Part shown: in pieces, positions 16,221-32,866 of the stretch
How the letters are laid out: each line of letters begins with the position of its first letter
Numbering within the stretch: position 1 is the first letter of the stretch
IMG/VR virus record: IMGVR_UViG_3300050033_000419
Location: 1-57,437 of that record
Origin: a virus
Lineage: Duplodnaviria > Caudoviricetes
Length of the DNA: 57,437 nucleotides
Strand: one strand, 5' to 3'
Notes under the pieces: generated by a model
Databases searched by the model: none
What the model saw: the letters and a program-made list of their open reading frames with translations, nothing else
Told to the model about the DNA's origin: nothing
Made by a program: the position numbers and the translations under genes

Positions 16221-16361
16221 TCAGGCAGCAGACCCCATCAATGGCCCAGGGACGACCAGACAATCGATCACGATCTTGGTTTCCATTTCCTTGGCGATCA
16301 GGACGCGCGTCTCGCTCTCGCGCAGTATCCGATCAACCAGGGCCATCTGATCGTCGATCAA
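16221..16361 (-). CDS. Small hypothetical protein (46 aa)
   Basis: TTG overlaps the LuxR stop; MIDDQMALVDRILRESETRV...GSAA. Confidence 0.4.
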   Translation of the reverse strand: MIDDQMALVDRILRESETRVLIAKEMETKIVIDCLVVPGPLMGSAA

Positions 16362-16603
16362 TGTGCCGCTATGCATGTGAGCTCCTGCTTTTCGGCTGCG
16401 AATTTCTCTTCGAGAAGCATGACGACGGCGTGGAGCCGATTATTCGCGCCGAGCTTCTCAATCACATGGCTGACTATCACTTTTAGATAATCGGGGCCTA
16501 GGCCCACTTGCGCGGCGATTTCCTTGTACGTCAGCCCGGTCTTCAGCCAGCCAAGTAGACCTTGCTCACGTGGTGTCAGTAAATTCCAGAGTGGACGATT
16601 CAT
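16358..16603 (-). CDS. Stand-alone LuxR/GerE-type HTH protein
   Basis: LTPREQGLLGWLKTGLTYKEIAAQVG...EKLGANNR. Confidence 0.85.
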   Translation of the reverse strand: MNRPLWNLLTPREQGLLGWLKTGLTYKEIAAQVGLGPDYLKVIVSHVIEKLGANNRLHAVVMLLEEKFAAEKQELTCIAAH

Positions 16604-16604
16604 C

Positions 16605-16874
16605 TCAATTGCTCACCATGTTCTCGACCACGATCACGCCATCCCCGTAGATCTCGACATCAACGTTCTTCGACTGCCCGTGCGCTTCGCGAATCTCGCG
16701 CTCGACATCGGCGAAATGCTGCTCCGCCTCGAGCACCTGCTGGTGCGCTTCGAAGAGATTCGTCTTCTCCGCCCAGGTCATGTCCTCGTGGCGCTTGTTC
16801 TCGGCCCACTGGCCGGCAGCGAAAGACGATGCGATAAGTAGCATGAGACCGAGATATTTCATGTGGATTTTCAT
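16605..16874 (-). CDS. Hypothetical exported/membrane protein
   Basis: Signal-peptide-like MKYLGLMLLIASSFAAG. Confidence 0.6.
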   Translation of the reverse strand: MKIHMKYLGLMLLIASSFAAGQWAENKRHEDMTWAEKTNLFEAHQQVLEAEQHFADVEREIREAHGQSKNVDVEIYGDGVIVVENMVSN

Positions 16875-16877
16875 CGG

Positions 16878-16999
16878 AACGCTTTGGGCCGAGATGTCGC
16901 GATCTCGGCCCTGGCGTTTACGCGGCTACCGGTAATTCATAGTCGGCAGTTATACGGTTTTGCCTGCGAATCAATCGCGCGCAATACTCGCCGCTGCGC
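16878..16999 (-). ncRNA. Candidate tmRNA mRNA-like-domain mimic (pseudoknot, tag frame ADYELPVAA, hairpin)
   Basis: TATAACT GCC GAC TAT GAA TTA CCG GTA GCC GCG TAA; upstream H-type pairing; downstream 10-bp hairpin; no tRNA-like domain found. Confidence 0.35.
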
Positions 17000-17026
17000 T
17001 TCTGGCTTCCCCTGCTGGCAGGAGCT

Positions 17027-17137
17027 TTATGAAATGGAGCCACCGACAGGCATCGAACCTGCAACCGTGGCTTTACGGGAGCCCTGCTCTACCAATTGAG
17101 CTACGGTGGCGTTGGTTGTGTGCGTGTCTGTGTCCAT
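17027..17137 (-). CDS. Thr-rich leader peptide (36 aa) translated through tRNA-Thr
   Basis: GAGG SD (17143-17146), ATG GAC ACA GAC ACG CAC ACA ACC AAC, then the tRNA; MDTDTHTTNATVAQ... Confidence 0.6.
   Translation of the reverse strand: MDTDTHTTNATVAQLVEQGSRKATVAGSMPVGGSIS
17035..17110 (-). tRNA. tRNA-Thr(CGT), atypical (C33, G27-A43)
   Basis: GCCACCG/CGGTGGC acceptor, GCTC/GAGC D stem, loop CCCGTAA, TTCGA T loop, encoded CCA. Confidence 0.9.
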
Positions 17138-17154
17138 AATTTCCTCGTGAACCT

Positions 17155-17243
17155 TGGCGGAGGGCGGAAGAATCGAACTCCTGACGCTCATCACGTCACC
17201 CTGGGTTTCGGATCCAGTTGCCGGCCATTCAGCGGCGCCCTCC
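17155..17243 (-). tRNA. tRNA-Ser(CGA), 8/4 acceptor/T-stem type
   Basis: GGAGGGCG/CGCCCTCC 8-bp acceptor, GGAG/CTTC 4-bp T stem, long variable arm TGACG/CGTCA, G73, CCA, loop TCCGAAA. Confidence 0.85.
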
Positions 17244-17248
17244 GAAAT

Positions 17249-17338
17249 TGGCGGAGAGTGCTGGATTCGAACCAGCGATGCCTTGTTCAGGCATACCGCA
17301 TTAGCAGTGCGGCGGTTTATCCGCTCACCCAACTCTCC
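17249..17338 (-). tRNA. tRNA-Ser(GCT), canonical 7/5
   Basis: GGAGAGT/ACTCTCC, CCGCA-CTGCTAA-TGCGG, long variable arm, G73, CCA. Confidence 0.95.
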
Positions 17339-17619
17339 ATTGTCGAATTAGAACTGCTAGATGATGAGCTCACGGCATTCCTCGAAACTTGCATTTCCGC
17401 GATTAGGACTGCCAACTGGAGCTTGGTCTCGGCACCGAGTTTATCCAGGAGCATTTTCATGTACTTCTTGACGACATTCTCGGTCGTCCCCACCGCAACG
17501 CCAATCTGCCGATTTGTCATTCCAGACGGAATCAGCACGGCAATCGATCTCAGGCGCGGCGAAAGACGCTCGAATTGCACCGTGAAGTGAGAATCGGTGA
17601 TCAATGTGCCGTTATTCAT
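17317..17619 (-). CDS. LuxR-type HTH protein with C-terminal poly-Ser running into tRNA-Ser(GCT)
   Basis: LSPRLRSIAVLIPSGMTNRQIG...TTENVVKKYMKMLLDKLG...VSSSSSSSNS; ATG overlaps the upstream gene end. Confidence 0.82.
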   Translation of the reverse strand: MNNGTLITDSHFTVQFERLSPRLRSIAVLIPSGMTNRQIGVAVGTTENVVKKYMKMLLDKLGAETKLQLAVLIAEMQVSRNAVSSSSSSSNSTMESWVSG

Positions 17620-17854
17620 TCGAGCTACACCGTCGTTCGGCTGCGTGTTTTTCTTCGAGAAGGATGACGATGGCATGGATGCGATTATTCGCGGCGATCT
17701 TCTCAGCCACCAGGGCGGTCATCTTTTTTACGTAATCGGTGCTGACGTCCATTTGGGGGGCAATTTCCTTGTAGGTCAGCCCCATCTTTAGCCAGCCGAG
17801 GAGAGCTTGCTCGCGTGGTGTCAGTTTTTCCCACAGCGGGCGCTTCGATTCCAT
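17612..17854 (-). CDS. LuxR-type HTH protein, paralog of 16358-16603
   Basis: GAGG SD; LTPREQALLGWLKMGLTYKEIA...EKIAANNR. Confidence 0.85.
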   Translation of the reverse strand: MESKRPLWEKLTPREQALLGWLKMGLTYKEIAPQMDVSTDYVKKMTALVAEKIAANNRIHAIVILLEEKHAAERRCSSNE

Positions 17855-17904
17855 AGGTTTCCTCAACGTTTAAGCACGCAATCGATTGGCCGTGGGGCGT
17901 CTCT

Positions 17905-17942
17905 AAAAGCAAAAGCCCGAACCTGTTTTGGTTCAAGCCTTT
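17905..17942 (-). terminator. Terminator in putative late-operon leader
   Basis: AAGGCTTGAACC-AAAACA-GGTTCGGGCTTTTGCTTTT. Confidence 0.65.
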
Positions 17943-18103
17943 ATGCGGTACGTTTGCGACGGAGTTGCCGGCTAAAAATGTCGCTGGGCGCGACGGGTAG
18001 TAAGACTTACGCTCGGCAACTCCGCCAGTCTGGCATAACTATTACGCACTCTGCTGTTAGCGACAATCCCTATATGGGTCTTTTATGCGAAAAACGTGGT
18101 TTT

Positions 18104-18119
18104 TGTTCCACGTAGAACA
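18104..18119. promoter_or_regulatory. parS-like palindrome
   Basis: TGTTCCACGTAGAACA, one mismatch to TGTTCCACGTGGAACA; intergenic. Confidence 0.45.
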
Positions 18120-18167
18120 ACCCAAGGTGAACAGTGGCGCATCACACATTTTTGGCTTCCGGAACGC

Positions 18168-18608
18168 TCATAGGAGCTTATCCAGCCCGCACGTGCGAAG
18201 CGACGACACCTGGTGAATACAGGCCATTATGAGGCTCAGAGAACCTTCTTCTTCTGGATCTTCGTCCCGCTCAAGGCTGTAAAGTTTCAACAATAGCAGC
18301 TCAAGCGCTTCCAGTTTGTCTGGTAGGTGCTGGGCGTACCTCTCCAGAGCGTCTTTCTTTTCCCTACAGTTTTTCAGCATCCGCACGGCTCCGTTCAGTC
18401 GAGCCTTCTGTAATTTCCAATCCTGCGTAAGTGTCCCGAGGCCGAGTTGCAGCCGCTCAATTTTTTTCCGTAGCGGAGCGGCTACTGTCTCGGCATAGGC
18501 AGTCAGTTCTTTTGCAATTTCGTTCAGTTGATACGGGTTGTTTCCTGGATCAACCATAATTGTCACGGCGAGGATTCGTGTAGCAATCTCTCTTGCGCTT
18601 ATAGTCAT
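18168..18608 (-). CDS. Hypothetical protein (SARE / YAETVAAPL module)
   Basis: ATGA-coupled operon; shares DNA repeats with neighbours. Confidence 0.6.
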   Translation of the reverse strand: MTISAREIATRILAVTIMVDPGNNPYQLNEIAKELTAYAETVAAPLRKKIERLQLGLGTLTQDWKLQKARLNGAVRMLKNCREKKDALERYAQHLPDKLEALELLLLKLYSLERDEDPEEEGSLSLIMACIHQVSSLRTCGLDKLL

Positions 18609-26455: not shown

Positions 26456-27551
26456 TCGCGGCCTCGACGAGTGATTCGGCTTTCACCGCTTTCACCACCA
26501 CGCCATCCAGTTCCGCATCGAGCCGTCGTAGAGCCGCCACTATCACGGCGCCGTACTTCTCGATCAGCACTGGGATCACTTCCTCGCTCGGAGCCAACAG
26601 CACCAGGTGGCCTTCGCGGGTCACGTACCCGGCACGCAGCGGCTTGATCCAGATCGCGAACGAGTGCGAATTGATTTCCTTCTCCAGTTCGTCCTGCACC
26701 TTGCGCCATAACCTGCCAACATCCTGCACAATGTGCCCTTCCCGCTCGCGTTGTCGCATCCACGCCTCTAGTACCTGGCCCATATCCACCGGTCTCGGCC
26801 GCACTGCCTCCACAGGTTTCGCCGGCGGATCGTGGGTGTTGCGCGGCGCGCGGTCCTGCTCGCGGTTCAGCCAGTTCACGCAGAACTTCAGCATCCCGCC
26901 ACGGGTCTTACGCTGTTTCGGATTCGCGTCGAGCCAGGCCGCCATGCTGCGCAACTGCTGGGCCACGTCGACGCCCGGGTAAAGCTCCTGCCAGTTACGC
27001 GCCTGTGCCTGGGCGATCGGGAAGTGTTTACCGTCGTTCTGGGCGAGTTTGATAGCGATGGGTTCCGGCGCCGGCGGCGAGTCGCTTGGCGGCTCGGCGC
27101 TAGGAATCAATGAATCAGGAATCAATGAATCAGGAATCAATGAATCAGGAATCAATGAATCAGGGGGATTTCCACGGAAGCACAACGTTGTGATCACGTT
27201 GGATTCACCGTTAGTTATCGGTGATGATGGAGGGGGTGGAATAACACCTTTCTTTTCCGTGTGATGAGGGCTCTGGTGTTTGGCGAAGTTGAGCACCGAA
27301 ATGTAGTTTTCCCCACCCAGGGAGTAGCGATGGATGAACTTCAGTTTTTCAAGTTCCGAGAGAAAACCGTCGATGTCCAGATTTTCACGGTAAGGGAAGA
27401 TCTCCGCCCGAAGGCGAAGCGGGCGGTCCTCGAGTCTTCCATCCCGGTCCGCCAAGCACCACAAACCCTGGAAGAGTAGGGTTAACAATGGGTCCCGTGT
27501 GCCCAGAACTTCGTTCTTAAACGTACCCGGTTTGATATTTCTCGCCCGCAT
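26448..27551 (-). CDS. Replication initiator with C-terminal DnaA domain-I-like region
   Basis: MRARNIKPG...LFQGLWCLADRDGRL...NFAKHQ; WQELYPGVDV...F..NWL; LWRKVQDELEKEINSHSFAIWIKPL. Confidence 0.82.
   Translation of the reverse strand: MRARNIKPGTFKNEVLGTRDPLLTLLFQGLWCLADRDGRLEDRPLRLRAEIFPYRENLDIDGFLSELEKLKFIHRYSLGGENYISVLNFAKHQSPHHTEKKGVIPPPPSSPITNGESNVITTLCFRGNPPDSLIPDSLIPDSLIPDSLIPSAEPPSDSPPAPEPIAIKLAQNDGKHFPIAQAQARNWQELYPGVDVAQQLRSMAAWLDANPKQRKTRGGMLKFCVNWLNREQDRAPRNTHDPPAKPVEAVRPRPVDMGQVLEAWMRQREREGHIVQDVGRLWRKVQDELEKEINSHSFAIWIKPLRAGYVTREGHLVLLAPSEEVIPVLIEKYGAVIVAALRRLDAELDGVVVKAVKAESLVEAASV
27102..27164. repeat. 4 x 15-bp tandem repeat in initiator (candidate iterons)
   Basis: (AGGAATCAATGAATC)4 encoding (DSLIP)4. 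Confidence 0.85.
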
Positions 27552-31514: not shown

Positions 31515-32811
31515 ATTGCGCCCCGGTCAGGCCGAACGTTGAGGCAATCGCATTCATCGCCGTGAGCTTTTGCGGCGCTCCGAGATCGCCATCCGTTTGC
31601 AATGGACAAAGCTCAGGATGAACACGCAGGAAGTAGGACTTACGAGAACCGTCCGGCTCCTGGGTTGAGTTCAAGACCTTGACCATTACGAGCGGTTCAT
31701 CGTCGTGGATCTCGGTGCGATACAGCTCGCCGAACTCGTCTTCGTGAATCCGCTCAGCCTTGCTGTCGACGAGGTAACGCGCGATTCCGTAGCGATCGAG
31801 CATCACCCGGCGGACTTCGACGTTCTCTTCCTTCTGGATGTGCTCGACGGTGATGAATTCCGGACGCATGATCACAAACTCCGGAACCATGACGCCATGC
31901 CAGAAGTGAAGGTTCTCGATGTCGGAGTCGAGCGCCGGACCGGTCGCGTTGTGCAGGCGCTTGCCGGTGGCGGCTTCTTCAACGTGAACGGTCGGCTTTG
32001 CGAACCAATAGAGGGTGTCCTCGGTCCAGTGCAACACCCACGCGCCGGCGAGGAAGGCGTGGAAGATAGGCTCGGACCATTCCTCCACTTTGGCTTTACC
32101 GAGCTGGCGCGCACCGAGATAGGTCGTTGCCAGCAGCGACGCTTCGAATCTCCACCACCACCAGCCCGGCGACTGGATACACCATGCAGCAAAGCGCTGG
32201 ATGGCTTCGTTTTCGTCCATCGCGTCCCTCGCGTCCCTCGCGGCCATCGCGTCCCTCGCGTCCATCGCGTCCCTCGCGGCCCTCGCGTCCATCGCGTCCC
32301 TCGCGTCCCTCGCGGCCATCGCGTCCCTCGCGTCCATCGCGTCCATCGCGGCCATCGCGTCCCTCGCGTCCCTCGCGGCCATCGCGTCCCTCGCGTCCAT
32401 CGCGTCCATCGCGTCCATCGCGGCCATCGCGGCCATCGCGGCCCTCGCGGCCATCGCGTCCATCGCGGCCCTCGCGTCCATCGCGTCCATCGCGGCCCTC
32501 GCGGCCATCGCGTCCCTCGCGTCCATCGCGTCCCTCGCGTCCATCGCGGCCATCGCGGCCCTCGCGTCCATCGCGCGATTTCGCTTCGCGAAATCGGAGA
32601 GCACTGCTTCCACGTAGCGCTTCAATGAAGGGTGCTGCTCCAACTTCCAATCGGCACGAAGCCGCTCGATCTTTCTCTCGACACCGAGAGCTTTCAGGTA
32701 ACGGTCGAGGTGCAGTTCCACGGCTGCTTCATCGATCACGCCTGGATAAGTGCATGCCGCGGTGTACCGTGCCAGGTCTTCGCTTGCCTTCGTCGTCGCT
32801 ATGATTGCCAT
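31486..32811 (-). CDS. DUF6745 protein with internal tripeptide repeat
   Basis: RLHNATGPAL...FWHGV...ENVEVRRVM...VLNSTQEPDGSRKSYFLRVHP...AIASTFG. Confidence 0.85.
   Translation of the reverse strand: MAIIATTKASEDLARYTAACTYPGVIDEAAVELHLDRYLKALGVERKIERLRADWKLEQHPSLKRYVEAVLSDFAKRNRAMDARAAMAAMDARDAMDARDAMAARAAMDAMDARAAMDAMAARAAMAAMAAMDAMDAMDARDAMAARDARDAMAAMDAMDARDAMAARDARDAMDARAARDAMDARDAMAARDARDAMDENEAIQRFAAWCIQSPGWWWWRFEASLLATTYLGARQLGKAKVEEWSEPIFHAFLAGAWVLHWTEDTLYWFAKPTVHVEEAATGKRLHNATGPALDSDIENLHFWHGVMVPEFVIMRPEFITVEHIQKEENVEVRRVMLDRYGIARYLVDSKAERIHEDEFGELYRTEIHDDEPLVMVKVLNSTQEPDGSRKSYFLRVHPELCPLQTDGDLGAPQKLTAMNAIASTFGLTGAQYARSLAQES
32215..32575. repeat. ~40 tandem 9-bp units GCG-A(T/G)G-G(A/C)C (minus strand)
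   Basis: Units cgcgtccat / cgcgtccct / cgcggccat / cgcggccct. Confidence 0.97.
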
Positions 32812-32866
32812 TGGTTCCTCTGCCAGATCGAAATGAAAATGGTGGGCGGCACCACCGCCCACGCGG

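What the first reader, a model, noticed from the sequence alone, without database searches (positions are those of the whole stretch)
17027..17146. Thr-rich leader peptide MDTDTHTTN reading through tRNA-Thr(CGT)
The 44-nt spacer between tRNA-Ser(CGA) and tRNA-Thr is almost entirely GAGG-N5-ATG GAC ACA GAC ACG CAC ACA ACC AAC. Four of the 8 codons after ATG are Thr, using three different codons, including the ACG read by this tRNA, which ends 12 nt before G1 (about a ribosome leading-edge distance). The frame stays open through the whole tRNA and stops a few nt past the CCA. It resembles thrL-type leaders but has no attenuator hairpins; the target would be the tRNA itself.
Basis: partly seen in the sequence, partly recalled or inferred. 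Interest (0 to 1): 0.82.

Follow-up and report, generated by a model that had tools for sequence, protein, structure and literature searches.

The report
Threonine-codon mini-gene abutting phage tRNA-Thr
A peat-soil phage has a tiny reading frame with a good ribosome-binding site and four threonine codons that runs straight into its threonine tRNA gene; it may let ribosomes gauge tRNA supply, but only this one genome shows it, so chance is not excluded.

Summary
GAGG(AA) 17146-17141, ATG 17137-17135 and GAC ACA GAC ACG CAC ACA ACC AAC lead into tRNA-Thr(CGT) at 17110-17035. The frame stays open to TAA 17029-17027.

For a real leader: the ribosome-binding site matches those of this phage's real genes. 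The combination is rare under a generic null (2.5e-6). Among 170 tRNA-Thr genes surveyed, only this one has at least 4 Thr codons upstream. A serine-codon run enters tRNA-Ser(GCT) in the same cluster. A conserved mini-gene MDSDKxxK abuts tRNA-Lys in 43 of 58 IMG/VR pattern hits.

Against: the Thr codons come from a degenerate (AC)n tract, and a second frame also carries 3. Only one codon is ACG. There is no terminator. No relative of the locus exists in any collection searched, so conservation is untestable. 670 other tRNAs show no cognate enrichment. The leader does not match the Lys-family profile.

Odds: translated cognate-codon leader about 0.4; incidental spacer about 0.35. The scan has noted similar leaders in other phages; those notes are unchecked.

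The parts
17141..17146 (-). Shine-Dalgarno-like GAGGAA; GAGG lies 5 nt before the ATG
   Evidence: Read directly. The same hexamer, 3-6 nt before a start codon, precedes long ORFs at 32820, 30966, 19652, 17864, 8314, 1327 and 34626.
17135..17137 (-). ATG of the 36-codon frame
   Evidence: GAGGAAATTATG, open for 36 codons.
17111..17134 (-). AC-rich tract GAC ACA GAC ACG CAC ACA ACC AAC, which is also the 5' leader of tRNA-Thr
   Evidence: It has 4 Thr codons in this frame and 3 in another. 17 of 24 positions match (AC)n in phase; 1748 of 200000 shuffles reach that. It is one of 8 such A+C-rich tracts on this strand.
17035..17110 (-). tRNA-Thr(CGT) with C32 and C33 and an encoded CCA
   Evidence: ARAGORN; Rfam 55 bits; cloverleaf at -30.4 kcal/mol.
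17027..17029 (-). TAA that ends the frame, with 5 nt between the CCA and the stop
17138..17142 (-). AA|AUU, the only AU-rich stretch of the spacer. It matches the RNase E core motif RN|WUU and lies between SD and AUG, 14 nt after the upstream CCA.
   Evidence: The sequence is and the motif from PMC5222698 (passages). By my estimate a match somewhere in 44 nt is expected about half the time, so this shows compatibility only.
17155..17243 (-). tRNA-like gene with anticodon CGA (Ser), C33, an 8-bp acceptor stem, a 4-bp T stem, a long variable arm, G73 and CCA
   Evidence: Fold. Rfam tRNA-Sec 26.2 bits, below the cut-off of 47. (8/4) tRNA-Ser in phage tRNA clusters is described in PMC5389517 (abstract and passages).
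17249..17338 (-). tRNA-Ser(GCT)
   Evidence: 59.2 bits.
17344..17370 (-). Serine-codon run AGC TCA TCA TCT AGC AGT TCT AAT TCG in the tail of the LuxR-type ORF 17676-17317, whose stop lies 22 nt inside tRNA-Ser. It is the parallel case in the same cluster.
   Evidence: An in-frame GAGGAA-N4-GTG lies at 17383-17371. The cluster representative of this protein carries Pfam PF00196. 7 Ser codons in the last 9: only this locus among 38 tRNA-Ser, and 0 of 634 other tRNAs.

Best explanation
The spacer is most likely a short translated leader. Ribosomes load on GAGGAA-ATG of the unprocessed tRNA precursor and read nine codons, four of them Thr, including the ACG that this tRNA decodes. They then run into the tRNA sequence. 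While a ribosome sits on the leader or inside the tRNA, the acceptor stem cannot form and RNase P cannot cut. How fast Thr codons are decoded would therefore set when and how often tRNA-Thr matures.

The same logic fits the Ser-codon run that enters tRNA-Ser(GCT) upstream. Shown here: the sequence features, their rarity, the parallel Ser case, and the existence of a conserved analogous mini-ORF before phage tRNA-Lys. Inferred and untested: that the ATG is used, that pausing occurs, and the sign of the effect on tRNA maturation. There is no transcription terminator, so this is not classical attenuation.
For: 1. RBS quality. On the coding strand, 62 of 85 SD-ATG sites open ORFs of at least 60 codons; on the other strand 8 of 38 do. 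GAGGAA plus 3-6 nt plus a start codon is used by seven long ORFs. The spacer alone folds at only -3.4 kcal/mol, and 68 of 200 shuffles fold as well. ACA motifs and CA repeats near a start codon enhance initiation in enterobacteria (PMC3879156, abstract and passages).
2. Rarity. P = 2.5e-6 under the Markov null. At least 4 Thr codons in one frame of the last 9 codons occurs in 1 of 170 tRNA-Thr (this one) and 4 of 502 other tRNAs. It occurs in 0 of 42 other tRNA-Thr(CGT) with the same CCCGTAA loop and 0 of 118 bacterial tRNA-Thr(CGT).
3. Second case in the same cluster. There are 7 Ser codons in the last 9 before tRNA-Ser(GCT), at the empirical floor p = 0.0016. They lie in a Pfam-supported ORF that ends inside the tRNA.
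4. Analogue. ATG GAY AGY GAY AAR NNN GGN AAR gives 58 IMG/VR hits, and 43 are followed by tRNA-Lys(ttt) 28-30 nt after the ATG. With codons 5-9 left free, 16 of 24 distinct hits precede tRNA-Lys, and all 16 keep Lys at codons 5 and 8. The window has ACG and ACC at codons 5 and 8, 27 nt before the tRNA.
5. The phage uses ACG for 36% of its Thr codons, so this tRNA matters to it.
Against: 1. The Thr codons are what any frame through an (AC)n-like tract gives. 17 of 24 positions are in phase with (AC)n (p = 0.009). A second frame has 3 Thr codons. All four non-Thr codons are NAC. With SD-ATG fixed, P(at least 4 Thr) is 0.051.
2. Only 1 of the 4 Thr codons is ACG. ACA, used twice, makes up 12% of Thr codons in this phage.
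3. No conservation evidence exists. The copies in two other peat runs are identical, and no diverged relative was found.
4. There is no general trend. Among 670 other tRNAs, 12 reach p <= 0.05 for cognate codons against about 33 expected. In 31 other SD-start ORFs that reach a tRNA, 20 cognate codons were seen against 15.2 expected (2903 of 20000 permutations reach 20).
5. The leader is not a profile match to the Lys family: nhmmer E = 24, PWM rank 177 of 114826. No tRNA type other than Lys carries an MDxD leader (0 of the 16 distinct tRNA-linked hits among 24 distinct hits).
6. A chance SD-ATG followed by at least 4 identical residues in 8 codons occurs in 2 of 32 cases on the non-coding strand.
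7. By inference, a ribosome paused 3-12 nt before G1 would block RNase P as well, so a simple 'stall gives more tRNA' logic is doubtful.
Confidence: 0.4

Rival explanations
1. Incidental. The stretch is an ordinary inter-tRNA spacer. An AU-rich cut site for an RNase E-type enzyme is followed by an unstructured, degenerate (AC)n tract that serves as the RNase P leader. SD-ATG and the Thr codons are by-products without function, and the Ser tail belongs to the LuxR protein for its own reasons.
For: - The tract has period-2 structure.
- Two of its three frames are Thr-rich.
- SD-ATG occurs about once per 1.5 kb on the non-coding strand (38 in 57.4 kb).
- An RN|WUU match lies 14 nt after the upstream CCA (PMC5222698).
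- There is no terminator or alternative hairpin.
- There is no cognate trend among 670 other tRNAs.
- The scan reads very many windows, so single coincidences at the 1e-4 level are expected.
Against: Two independent rare features match the cognate amino acid in one cluster, with empirical p = 0.0099 for Thr and p <= 0.0016 for Ser before the SD-start is even required. The RBS is of the phage's own preferred type. A conserved analogue exists for tRNA-Lys. TRF finds no microsatellite.
Confidence: 0.35
2. Translated, but not a Thr sensor. The mini-ORF only keeps a ribosome on an otherwise untranslated, C-rich, G-poor stretch in the middle of an operon. This would shield it from Rho-type termination or from nucleases, so that the downstream genes (89-aa ORF, LuxR, HNH, terminase) are still transcribed.
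For: All genes run on one strand with the tRNAs between them. No promoter-like site was found in 16300-18200. The tract is C-rich, G-poor and unstructured, which is the composition Rho prefers (my own knowledge).
Against: It does not explain why the codons match the tRNA, nor the Ser parallel. The tract is only 24 nt long. Nothing was tested.
Confidence: 0.08
3. RNA-level element. The AC-rich leader acts by base pairing. Either it pairs with the GU-rich 3' half of the tRNA and delays folding, or, once released, it serves as a small CA-rich spacer fragment that binds a GU-rich RNA or a protein.
For: In the predicted lowest-energy fold, 18 Watson-Crick pairs join leader 17136-17114 to tRNA positions 52-76. 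That fold is -37.3 kcal/mol against -30.6 for the cloverleaf with a free leader. The window ranks 30th of 678 for pairs with the 3' part. Fragments of tRNA precursors act as sRNA sponges in E. coli (cited in PMC5222698).
Against: The pairing is driven by composition. 499 of 1500 shuffled leaders fold as stably, and 149 of 1500 make at least 18 pairs. The Lys family shows no such pairing (median 2 pairs). No partner RNA is known.
Confidence: 0.07

Closest known systems
Leader-peptide transcription attenuators of amino-acid operons (thrL, hisL, trpL, pheL). Their features are given here from my own knowledge; pheL and trpL papers were seen only as listings.
   Same: A short ORF with its own SD and ATG, enriched in codons of one amino acid, sits just upstream of the thing it would control. 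The proposed sensor is ribosome speed.
   Different: There is no terminator and no pair of alternative hairpins. Only 12 nt separate the ACG codon from the target. The target is a tRNA, not a biosynthetic operon. The Thr codons alternate with NAC codons instead of forming a run. There is no conservation evidence.
SD-MDSDKxxK mini-ORF abutting tRNA-Lys(UUU) in uncultured phages (found here; noted earlier by the scan as e1-5634945). I found no paper on it.
   Same: An SD and an ATG lie 27-30 nt before the tRNA. The peptide starts M-D-[S/T]-D. Codons 5 and 8 are cognate to the tRNA behind. The frame runs into the tRNA. 12 of the first 15 nt are identical to the family consensus.
   Different: There is no significant profile match (E = 24). 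The family has a small GUCC..GGAC hairpin over the AUG, and the window has only a weak GUUCA..UGGAC with the SD in the loop. The family is restricted to tRNA-Lys. The family is conserved across 30 distinct tRNA-Lys sequences, whereas the window stands alone.
Spacers of polycistronic tRNA transcripts processed by RNase E and RNase P in enterobacteria (PMC5222698 passages; PMC4176162 seen as listing and start of abstract only).
   Same: A short unstructured spacer lies between two same-strand tRNAs with encoded CCA. An RN|WUU-type site lies 14 nt after the CCA, compared with 15 nt in leuZ 3'ETS.
   Different: Such spacers are not known to carry a strong SD-ATG with cognate codons.

Membership tests
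Leader-peptide transcription attenuator (thrL type) | Short ORF with an SD and a start codon upstream of the regulated gene | tested here: met
   GAGG-N5-ATG with a 36-codon frame.
Leader-peptide transcription attenuator (thrL type) | Run of codons for the sensed amino acid | tested here: inconclusive
   4 of 8 codons are Thr, but they are not consecutive and use 3 different codons, only one of them ACG. They are explained by an (AC)n-like tract.
Leader-peptide transcription attenuator (thrL type) | Mutually exclusive hairpins that include an intrinsic terminator between the leader and the regulated gene | tested here: not met
   No terminator-like site lies in 17154-17027. The three found in 16300-18200 are elsewhere. 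The spacer fold is -3.4 kcal/mol with z = -0.39.
Leader-peptide transcription attenuator (thrL type) | Conservation of SD, frame and regulatory codons in relatives | not testable with these tools
   No relative of the locus was found.
Phage SD-MDSDKxxK mini-ORF before tRNA-Lys(UUU) | SD plus ATG 28-30 nt upstream of the tRNA, with the frame running into it | tested here: met
   The distance in the window is 27 nt. In the family it is 29 nt (31 hits), 30 nt (8) and 28 nt (4) among 58 hits.
Phage SD-MDSDKxxK mini-ORF before tRNA-Lys(UUU) | Cognate codons at positions 5 and 8 | tested here: met
   The window has ACG at codon 5 and ACC at codon 8. All 16 distinct tRNA-linked hits of the unconstrained pattern have Lys at both positions.
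Phage SD-MDSDKxxK mini-ORF before tRNA-Lys(UUU) | Sequence similarity to the family profile | tested here: not met
   nhmmer E = 24 for 17139-17131. The ungapped PWM ranks the site 177th of 114826.
Phage SD-MDSDKxxK mini-ORF before tRNA-Lys(UUU) | Small hairpin GUCC(A)..(U)GGAC across the AUG, just after the SD | tested here: inconclusive
   The family hairpin is seen. The window has GUUCA..UGGAC with the SD inside the loop, no better than shuffles.
Ordinary inter-tRNA processing spacer | Unstructured spacer between same-strand tRNAs with an AU-rich endonuclease site | tested here: met
   AA|AUU matches RN|WUU (PMC5222698). The match is not statistically meaningful.
Dinucleotide microsatellite (AC)n | Tandem array detectable as a repeat | tested here: inconclusive
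   TRF finds nothing at score 30. However, 17 of 24 positions are in phase with (AC)n, reached by 1748 of 200000 shuffles.

The most novel reading that the evidence does not exclude
Both leaders in this cluster, the Ser run into tRNA-Ser(GCT) with the 8/4 tRNA-Ser(CGA) behind it and the Thr mini-ORF into tRNA-Thr(CGT), are ribosome-read gauges of the supply of exactly these tRNAs. They act without any terminator: the ribosome's position on the precursor decides whether the tRNA can fold and be cut by RNase P. Combined with the unusual C33 anticodon loops, the cassette would be a self-regulating replacement set for host tRNAs that a defence nuclease depletes.
Probability: 0.3. Interest if true: 0.85.

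Novelty: new variant of a known kind. Interest (0 to 1): 0.55.

Why it matters
Why phages carry tRNAs, and how they control them, is still debated; proposals include codon compensation and replacement of tRNAs destroyed by host nucleases (PMC10264068, abstract and passages). A translated leader written in the codons of the tRNA behind it would be a direct sensor of decoding capacity. It would also extend ribosome-mediated sensing from amino-acid operons to tRNA maturation itself, without a terminator.

My three literature searches turned up no paper describing this. The window offers a very compact, easily synthesised test object of about 330 nt with two such leaders. If the feature is incidental, it is a useful warning that AC-rich spacers read as threonine in most frames.

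Tried and rejected
Searches for relatives that found nothing useful:
- Relatives via the large terminase: 80 IMG/VR loci, at most 57% identity. 60 of the 80 were scanned and none holds a tRNA; the other 20 were not scanned.
- Relatives via the LuxR-type neighbours: the 119-aa protein finds only itself among 5.8 billion clusters (1 of 18 candidates, 'near' lengths only). The 84-aa paralog finds none in IMG/VR.
- DNA patterns from the tRNA-Thr gave 0 hits in viral contigs and 0 in metagenome contigs.
- Looser patterns gave non-homologous tRNA-Thr genes only, which served as controls.

Sequencing runs: 15 peat-metagenome rows, with no RNA holder listed. Contigs of 4 runs were laid. X3 (16534-17606) and X4 (16794-17165) carry the stretch without a difference, so there is no microdiversity to read. 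The one variant (17079 G>A) sits in short tRNA-like pieces of other organisms. X5 and X6 do not cover the spacer.

Other leads that did not hold:
- Leader-tRNA pairing looked striking (18 pairs), but composition-matched shuffles reach it and it ranks only in the top 4-14% of 678 tRNAs.
- The similarity of the two upstream contexts (CAAG-TT-CGAGGAA) is reached by 265 of 5000 shuffles and 96 of 1551 genomic 60-mers.
- The motif ATGGAYNNNGAY occurs at -25 to -29 before 4 of 678 tRNAs, against a background of 1 per 55 kb. I defined it after seeing three of the four. The follow-up scan found only tRNA-Lys.
- Homology to the Lys family is not supported.
- The fold of the whole 521-nt region did not reproduce the cloverleaves and was not used.
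- Promoter scan: none found.
- The bacterial tRNA-Thr hits come from many phyla, so they give no host assignment.
- Supplementary files of PMC5389517 (phage 8/4 tRNA clusters) were closed and could bear on the 8/4 tRNA-Ser note.

Full report
WHAT IS THERE. The window is a complete 57,437-base virus record. It is found in peat metagenomes. Practically all genes lie on the minus strand: 62 of 85 SD-ATG sites there open ORFs of at least 60 codons, against 8 of 38 on the plus strand.

Read on the minus strand, the order is:
- a LuxR-type 84-aa ORF (17866-17612);
- a LuxR-type 119-aa ORF (17676-17317; the cluster representative of this protein carries Pfam PF00196), whose tail is a serine run and whose stop lies 22 nt inside the next gene;
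- tRNA-Ser(GCT) 17338-17249;
- 5 nt;
- a tRNA-like gene 17243-17155 with anticodon CGA;
- the 44-nt spacer 17154-17111;
- tRNA-Thr(CGT) 17110-17035;
- about 160 nt;
- an 89-aa ORF, a third LuxR-type ORF, an HNH endonuclease, then the small and large terminase.

ARAGORN and Rfam call only the first and third tRNA. The middle one reaches 26.2 bits on tRNA-Sec, below the cut-off of 47. It folds with an 8-bp acceptor stem, a 4-bp T stem and a long variable arm. This is the '(8/4) tRNA-Ser' form described for phage tRNA clusters (PMC5389517, abstract and passages).

The features are GAGG 17146-17143, five bases, ATG 17137-17135, then GAC ACA GAC ACG CAC ACA ACC AAC. ACG ends 12 nt before G1. The frame is open through the tRNA to TAA 17029-17027.

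IS IT MORE THAN CHANCE? That depends on what is taken as given.
- Against an order-1 Markov model of this strand, an SD-ATG frame open to the end of a 44-nt spacer has P = 0.027. With at least 4 Thr codons as well, P = 2.5e-6.
- With SD-ATG fixed and only the 24-nt tract shuffled, P(at least 4 Thr) = 0.051.
- The tract gives 4, 0 and 3 Thr codons in its three frames.
- 17 of its 24 bases match (AC)n in one phase; 1748 of 200000 shuffles reach that, although TRF reports no repeat.
- All four non-Thr codons are NAC.

So the threonine content is largely the shadow of an AC-rich, period-2 tract. Such tracts are rare here: 8 on this strand and 2 on the other. The open frame through the tRNA carries no weight, because the same frame is open for 101 codons across all three tRNAs.

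- The best terminase relatives in IMG/VR are at most 57% identical (80 loci). The 60 I scanned hold no tRNA.
- The LuxR neighbours have no relatives.
- tRNA-Thr patterns find nothing in viral or metagenome contigs.
- Two other peat runs carry the stretch without a single difference.

COMPARISON SETS therefore had to be non-homologous.
- (a) 42 other distinct tRNA-Thr(CGT) loci with the same CCCGTAA loop. None has more than 3 Thr codons in a frame. Four have an SD-start frame reaching the tRNA, with 0-1 Thr codon.
- (b) A survey of 672 distinct tRNAs from all loci fetched up to that point. At least 4 Thr codons occurs in 1 of 170 tRNA-Thr (the window) and 4 of 502 other tRNAs. Among the 670 non-window tRNAs there is no cognate-codon excess: 12 reach p <= 0.05 where about 33 are expected.
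- (c) 118 bacterial tRNA-Thr(CGT) genes with the same acceptor stem. None has at least 4 Thr codons, two have SD-start frames with no Thr codon, and all have U33.

The window is an outlier, not an instance of a general rule.

WHAT RAISES THE ODDS OF FUNCTION.

First, the ribosome-binding site is of the phage's own preferred type. It sits in an unstructured spacer, upstream of ACA/CA-rich sequence, which enhances initiation in enterobacteria (PMC3879156).

Second, the neighbouring tRNA-Ser(GCT) is preceded by AGC TCA TCA TCT AGC AGT TCT AAT TCG, in a frame that is certainly a gene and that ends inside the tRNA. Seven Ser codons in the last nine is unique among 38 tRNA-Ser and is reached by none of 634 other tRNAs. 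That stretch also has an in-frame GAGGAA-N4-GTG. The two upstream contexts share CAAG-TT-CGAGGAA, but only at p of about 0.05. Two cognate matches in one cluster are hard to get by chance. My rough product of the empirical rates is below 1e-6 per cluster.

Third, a precedent exists. In my survey two contigs carried SD-ATG MDSDK[S/C]GK just before tRNA-Lys(ttt), differing by synonymous changes. The degenerate pattern for that peptide gave 58 IMG/VR hits against roughly 3-4 expected by my estimate. Of these, 43 are followed by tRNA-Lys(ttt) 28-30 nt after the ATG. A looser pattern that leaves codons 5-9 free gave 24 distinct hits: 16 before tRNA-Lys, all keeping Lys at codons 5 and 8 while codon 7 varies freely, and 8 ordinary gene starts. 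The family spans 30 distinct tRNA-Lys sequences. The window's leader has the same layout: M-D-T-D, cognate codons at positions 5 and 8, and 27 nt to the tRNA.

WHAT LOWERS THEM.
- The window's leader is not a significant match to that family (nhmmer E = 24; PWM rank 177 of 114826).
- No tRNA other than Lys carries an MDxD leader.
- Only one of the four Thr codons is the ACG this tRNA reads. ACA, used twice, makes up 12% of Thr codons in this phage, whereas ACG makes up 36%.
- No terminator or switchable hairpin exists.
- The predicted 18-bp pairing of the leader with tRNA positions 52-76 is no better than composition-matched shuffles. It is absent from the Lys family.
- The only AU-rich site of the spacer, AA|AUU, fits the RNase E motif and lies between SD and AUG (PMC5222698). 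Normal processing would therefore destroy the RBS.
- By inference, a ribosome paused on codons 5-8 has its front edge at or inside the tRNA and would also block RNase P. The sign of any regulation is therefore unclear.

VERDICT. My odds are:
- about 0.4 that this is a translated cognate-codon leader coupling Thr decoding to tRNA-Thr maturation;
- about 0.35 that it is an incidental AC-rich spacer;
- about 0.08 that it is translated but not a sensor;
- about 0.07 that it is an RNA-level element;
- the rest unknown.

It is not a member of the classical attenuator family, because the terminator test failed. It is not a demonstrable member of the Lys-leader family, because the profile test failed. 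It may nevertheless work like them.

The scan has noted cognate-codon leaders before tRNA genes in other phages. Those notes are unchecked, and I used them as leads only. I verified one of them in part, the tRNA-Lys family.

I found no paper describing leader-peptide control of tRNA genes. This rests on searches, read at listing level.

Noticed in passing
window 17155-17243 (-): A tRNA-like gene with anticodon CGA, an 8-bp acceptor stem, a 4-bp T stem, a long variable arm and G73-CCA. ARAGORN misses it and Rfam scores it below cut-off (tRNA-Sec 26.2 bits). It fits the (8/4) tRNA-Ser / allo-tRNA group of PMC5389517.
   Followed up: partly
window 17035-17110 and 17155-17243 (-): Both tRNAs have C at position 33, where U is nearly universal; tRNA-Thr also has C32. 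All 118 bacterial tRNA-Thr(CGT) with the same acceptor stem have U33. The CCCGTAA loop recurs in 3 viral and 59 metagenome loci. This may relate to nuclease-evading anticodon loops (PMC10264068).
   Followed up: partly
window 17344-17383 (-): A serine run (8 of 9 codons, from both codon boxes) in the tail of the LuxR-type ORF, with an in-frame GAGGAA-N4-GTG before it. The ORF's stop lies 22 nt inside tRNA-Ser(GCT), so RNase P cleavage would leave the mRNA without a stop codon.
   Followed up: partly
loci L151, L215, L384-L469: A conserved SD-ATG mini-ORF MDSDK-x-x-K lies 28-30 nt before tRNA-Lys(UUU) in 43 of 58 IMG/VR pattern hits. A small GUCC..GGAC hairpin lies over the AUG. The leader is more conserved than the tRNA behind it (30 distinct tRNA-Lys sequences).
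   Followed up: partly
window 16350-16601 and 17593-17846: A direct repeat of about 250 nt (77-82% identity; the two small LuxR-type paralogs) brackets the cassette of LuxR-119, three tRNAs and the 89-aa ORF. The spacing is 1245 nt.
   Followed up: no
ARAGORN finds no tmRNA.
   Followed up: no
window 16886-16909 (-): A perfect 10-bp hairpin GGCCGAGATC..GATCTCGGCC without a U run, just before the 89-aa ORF that starts at 16874.
   Followed up: no
window 32220-32553 (-) and 27110-27155 (+): GAGGGNCGCGATG recurs 13 times in frame within one long ORF. AGGAATCAATG recurs 4 times at 15-nt spacing on the other strand. Both look like tandem repeats.
   Followed up: no
window 17 and 57149; 144 and 694 (+): The same 14-mer with SD-ATG appears near both ends of the record. 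An identical 34-nt context appears at 144 and 694. These may be terminal or internal repeats.
   Followed up: no
locus L235 1657-1757 (+): ATG GAC AAA GAC AGT starts 25 nt before a tRNA-Ala(tgc), without an obvious SD or Ala codons.
   Followed up: no
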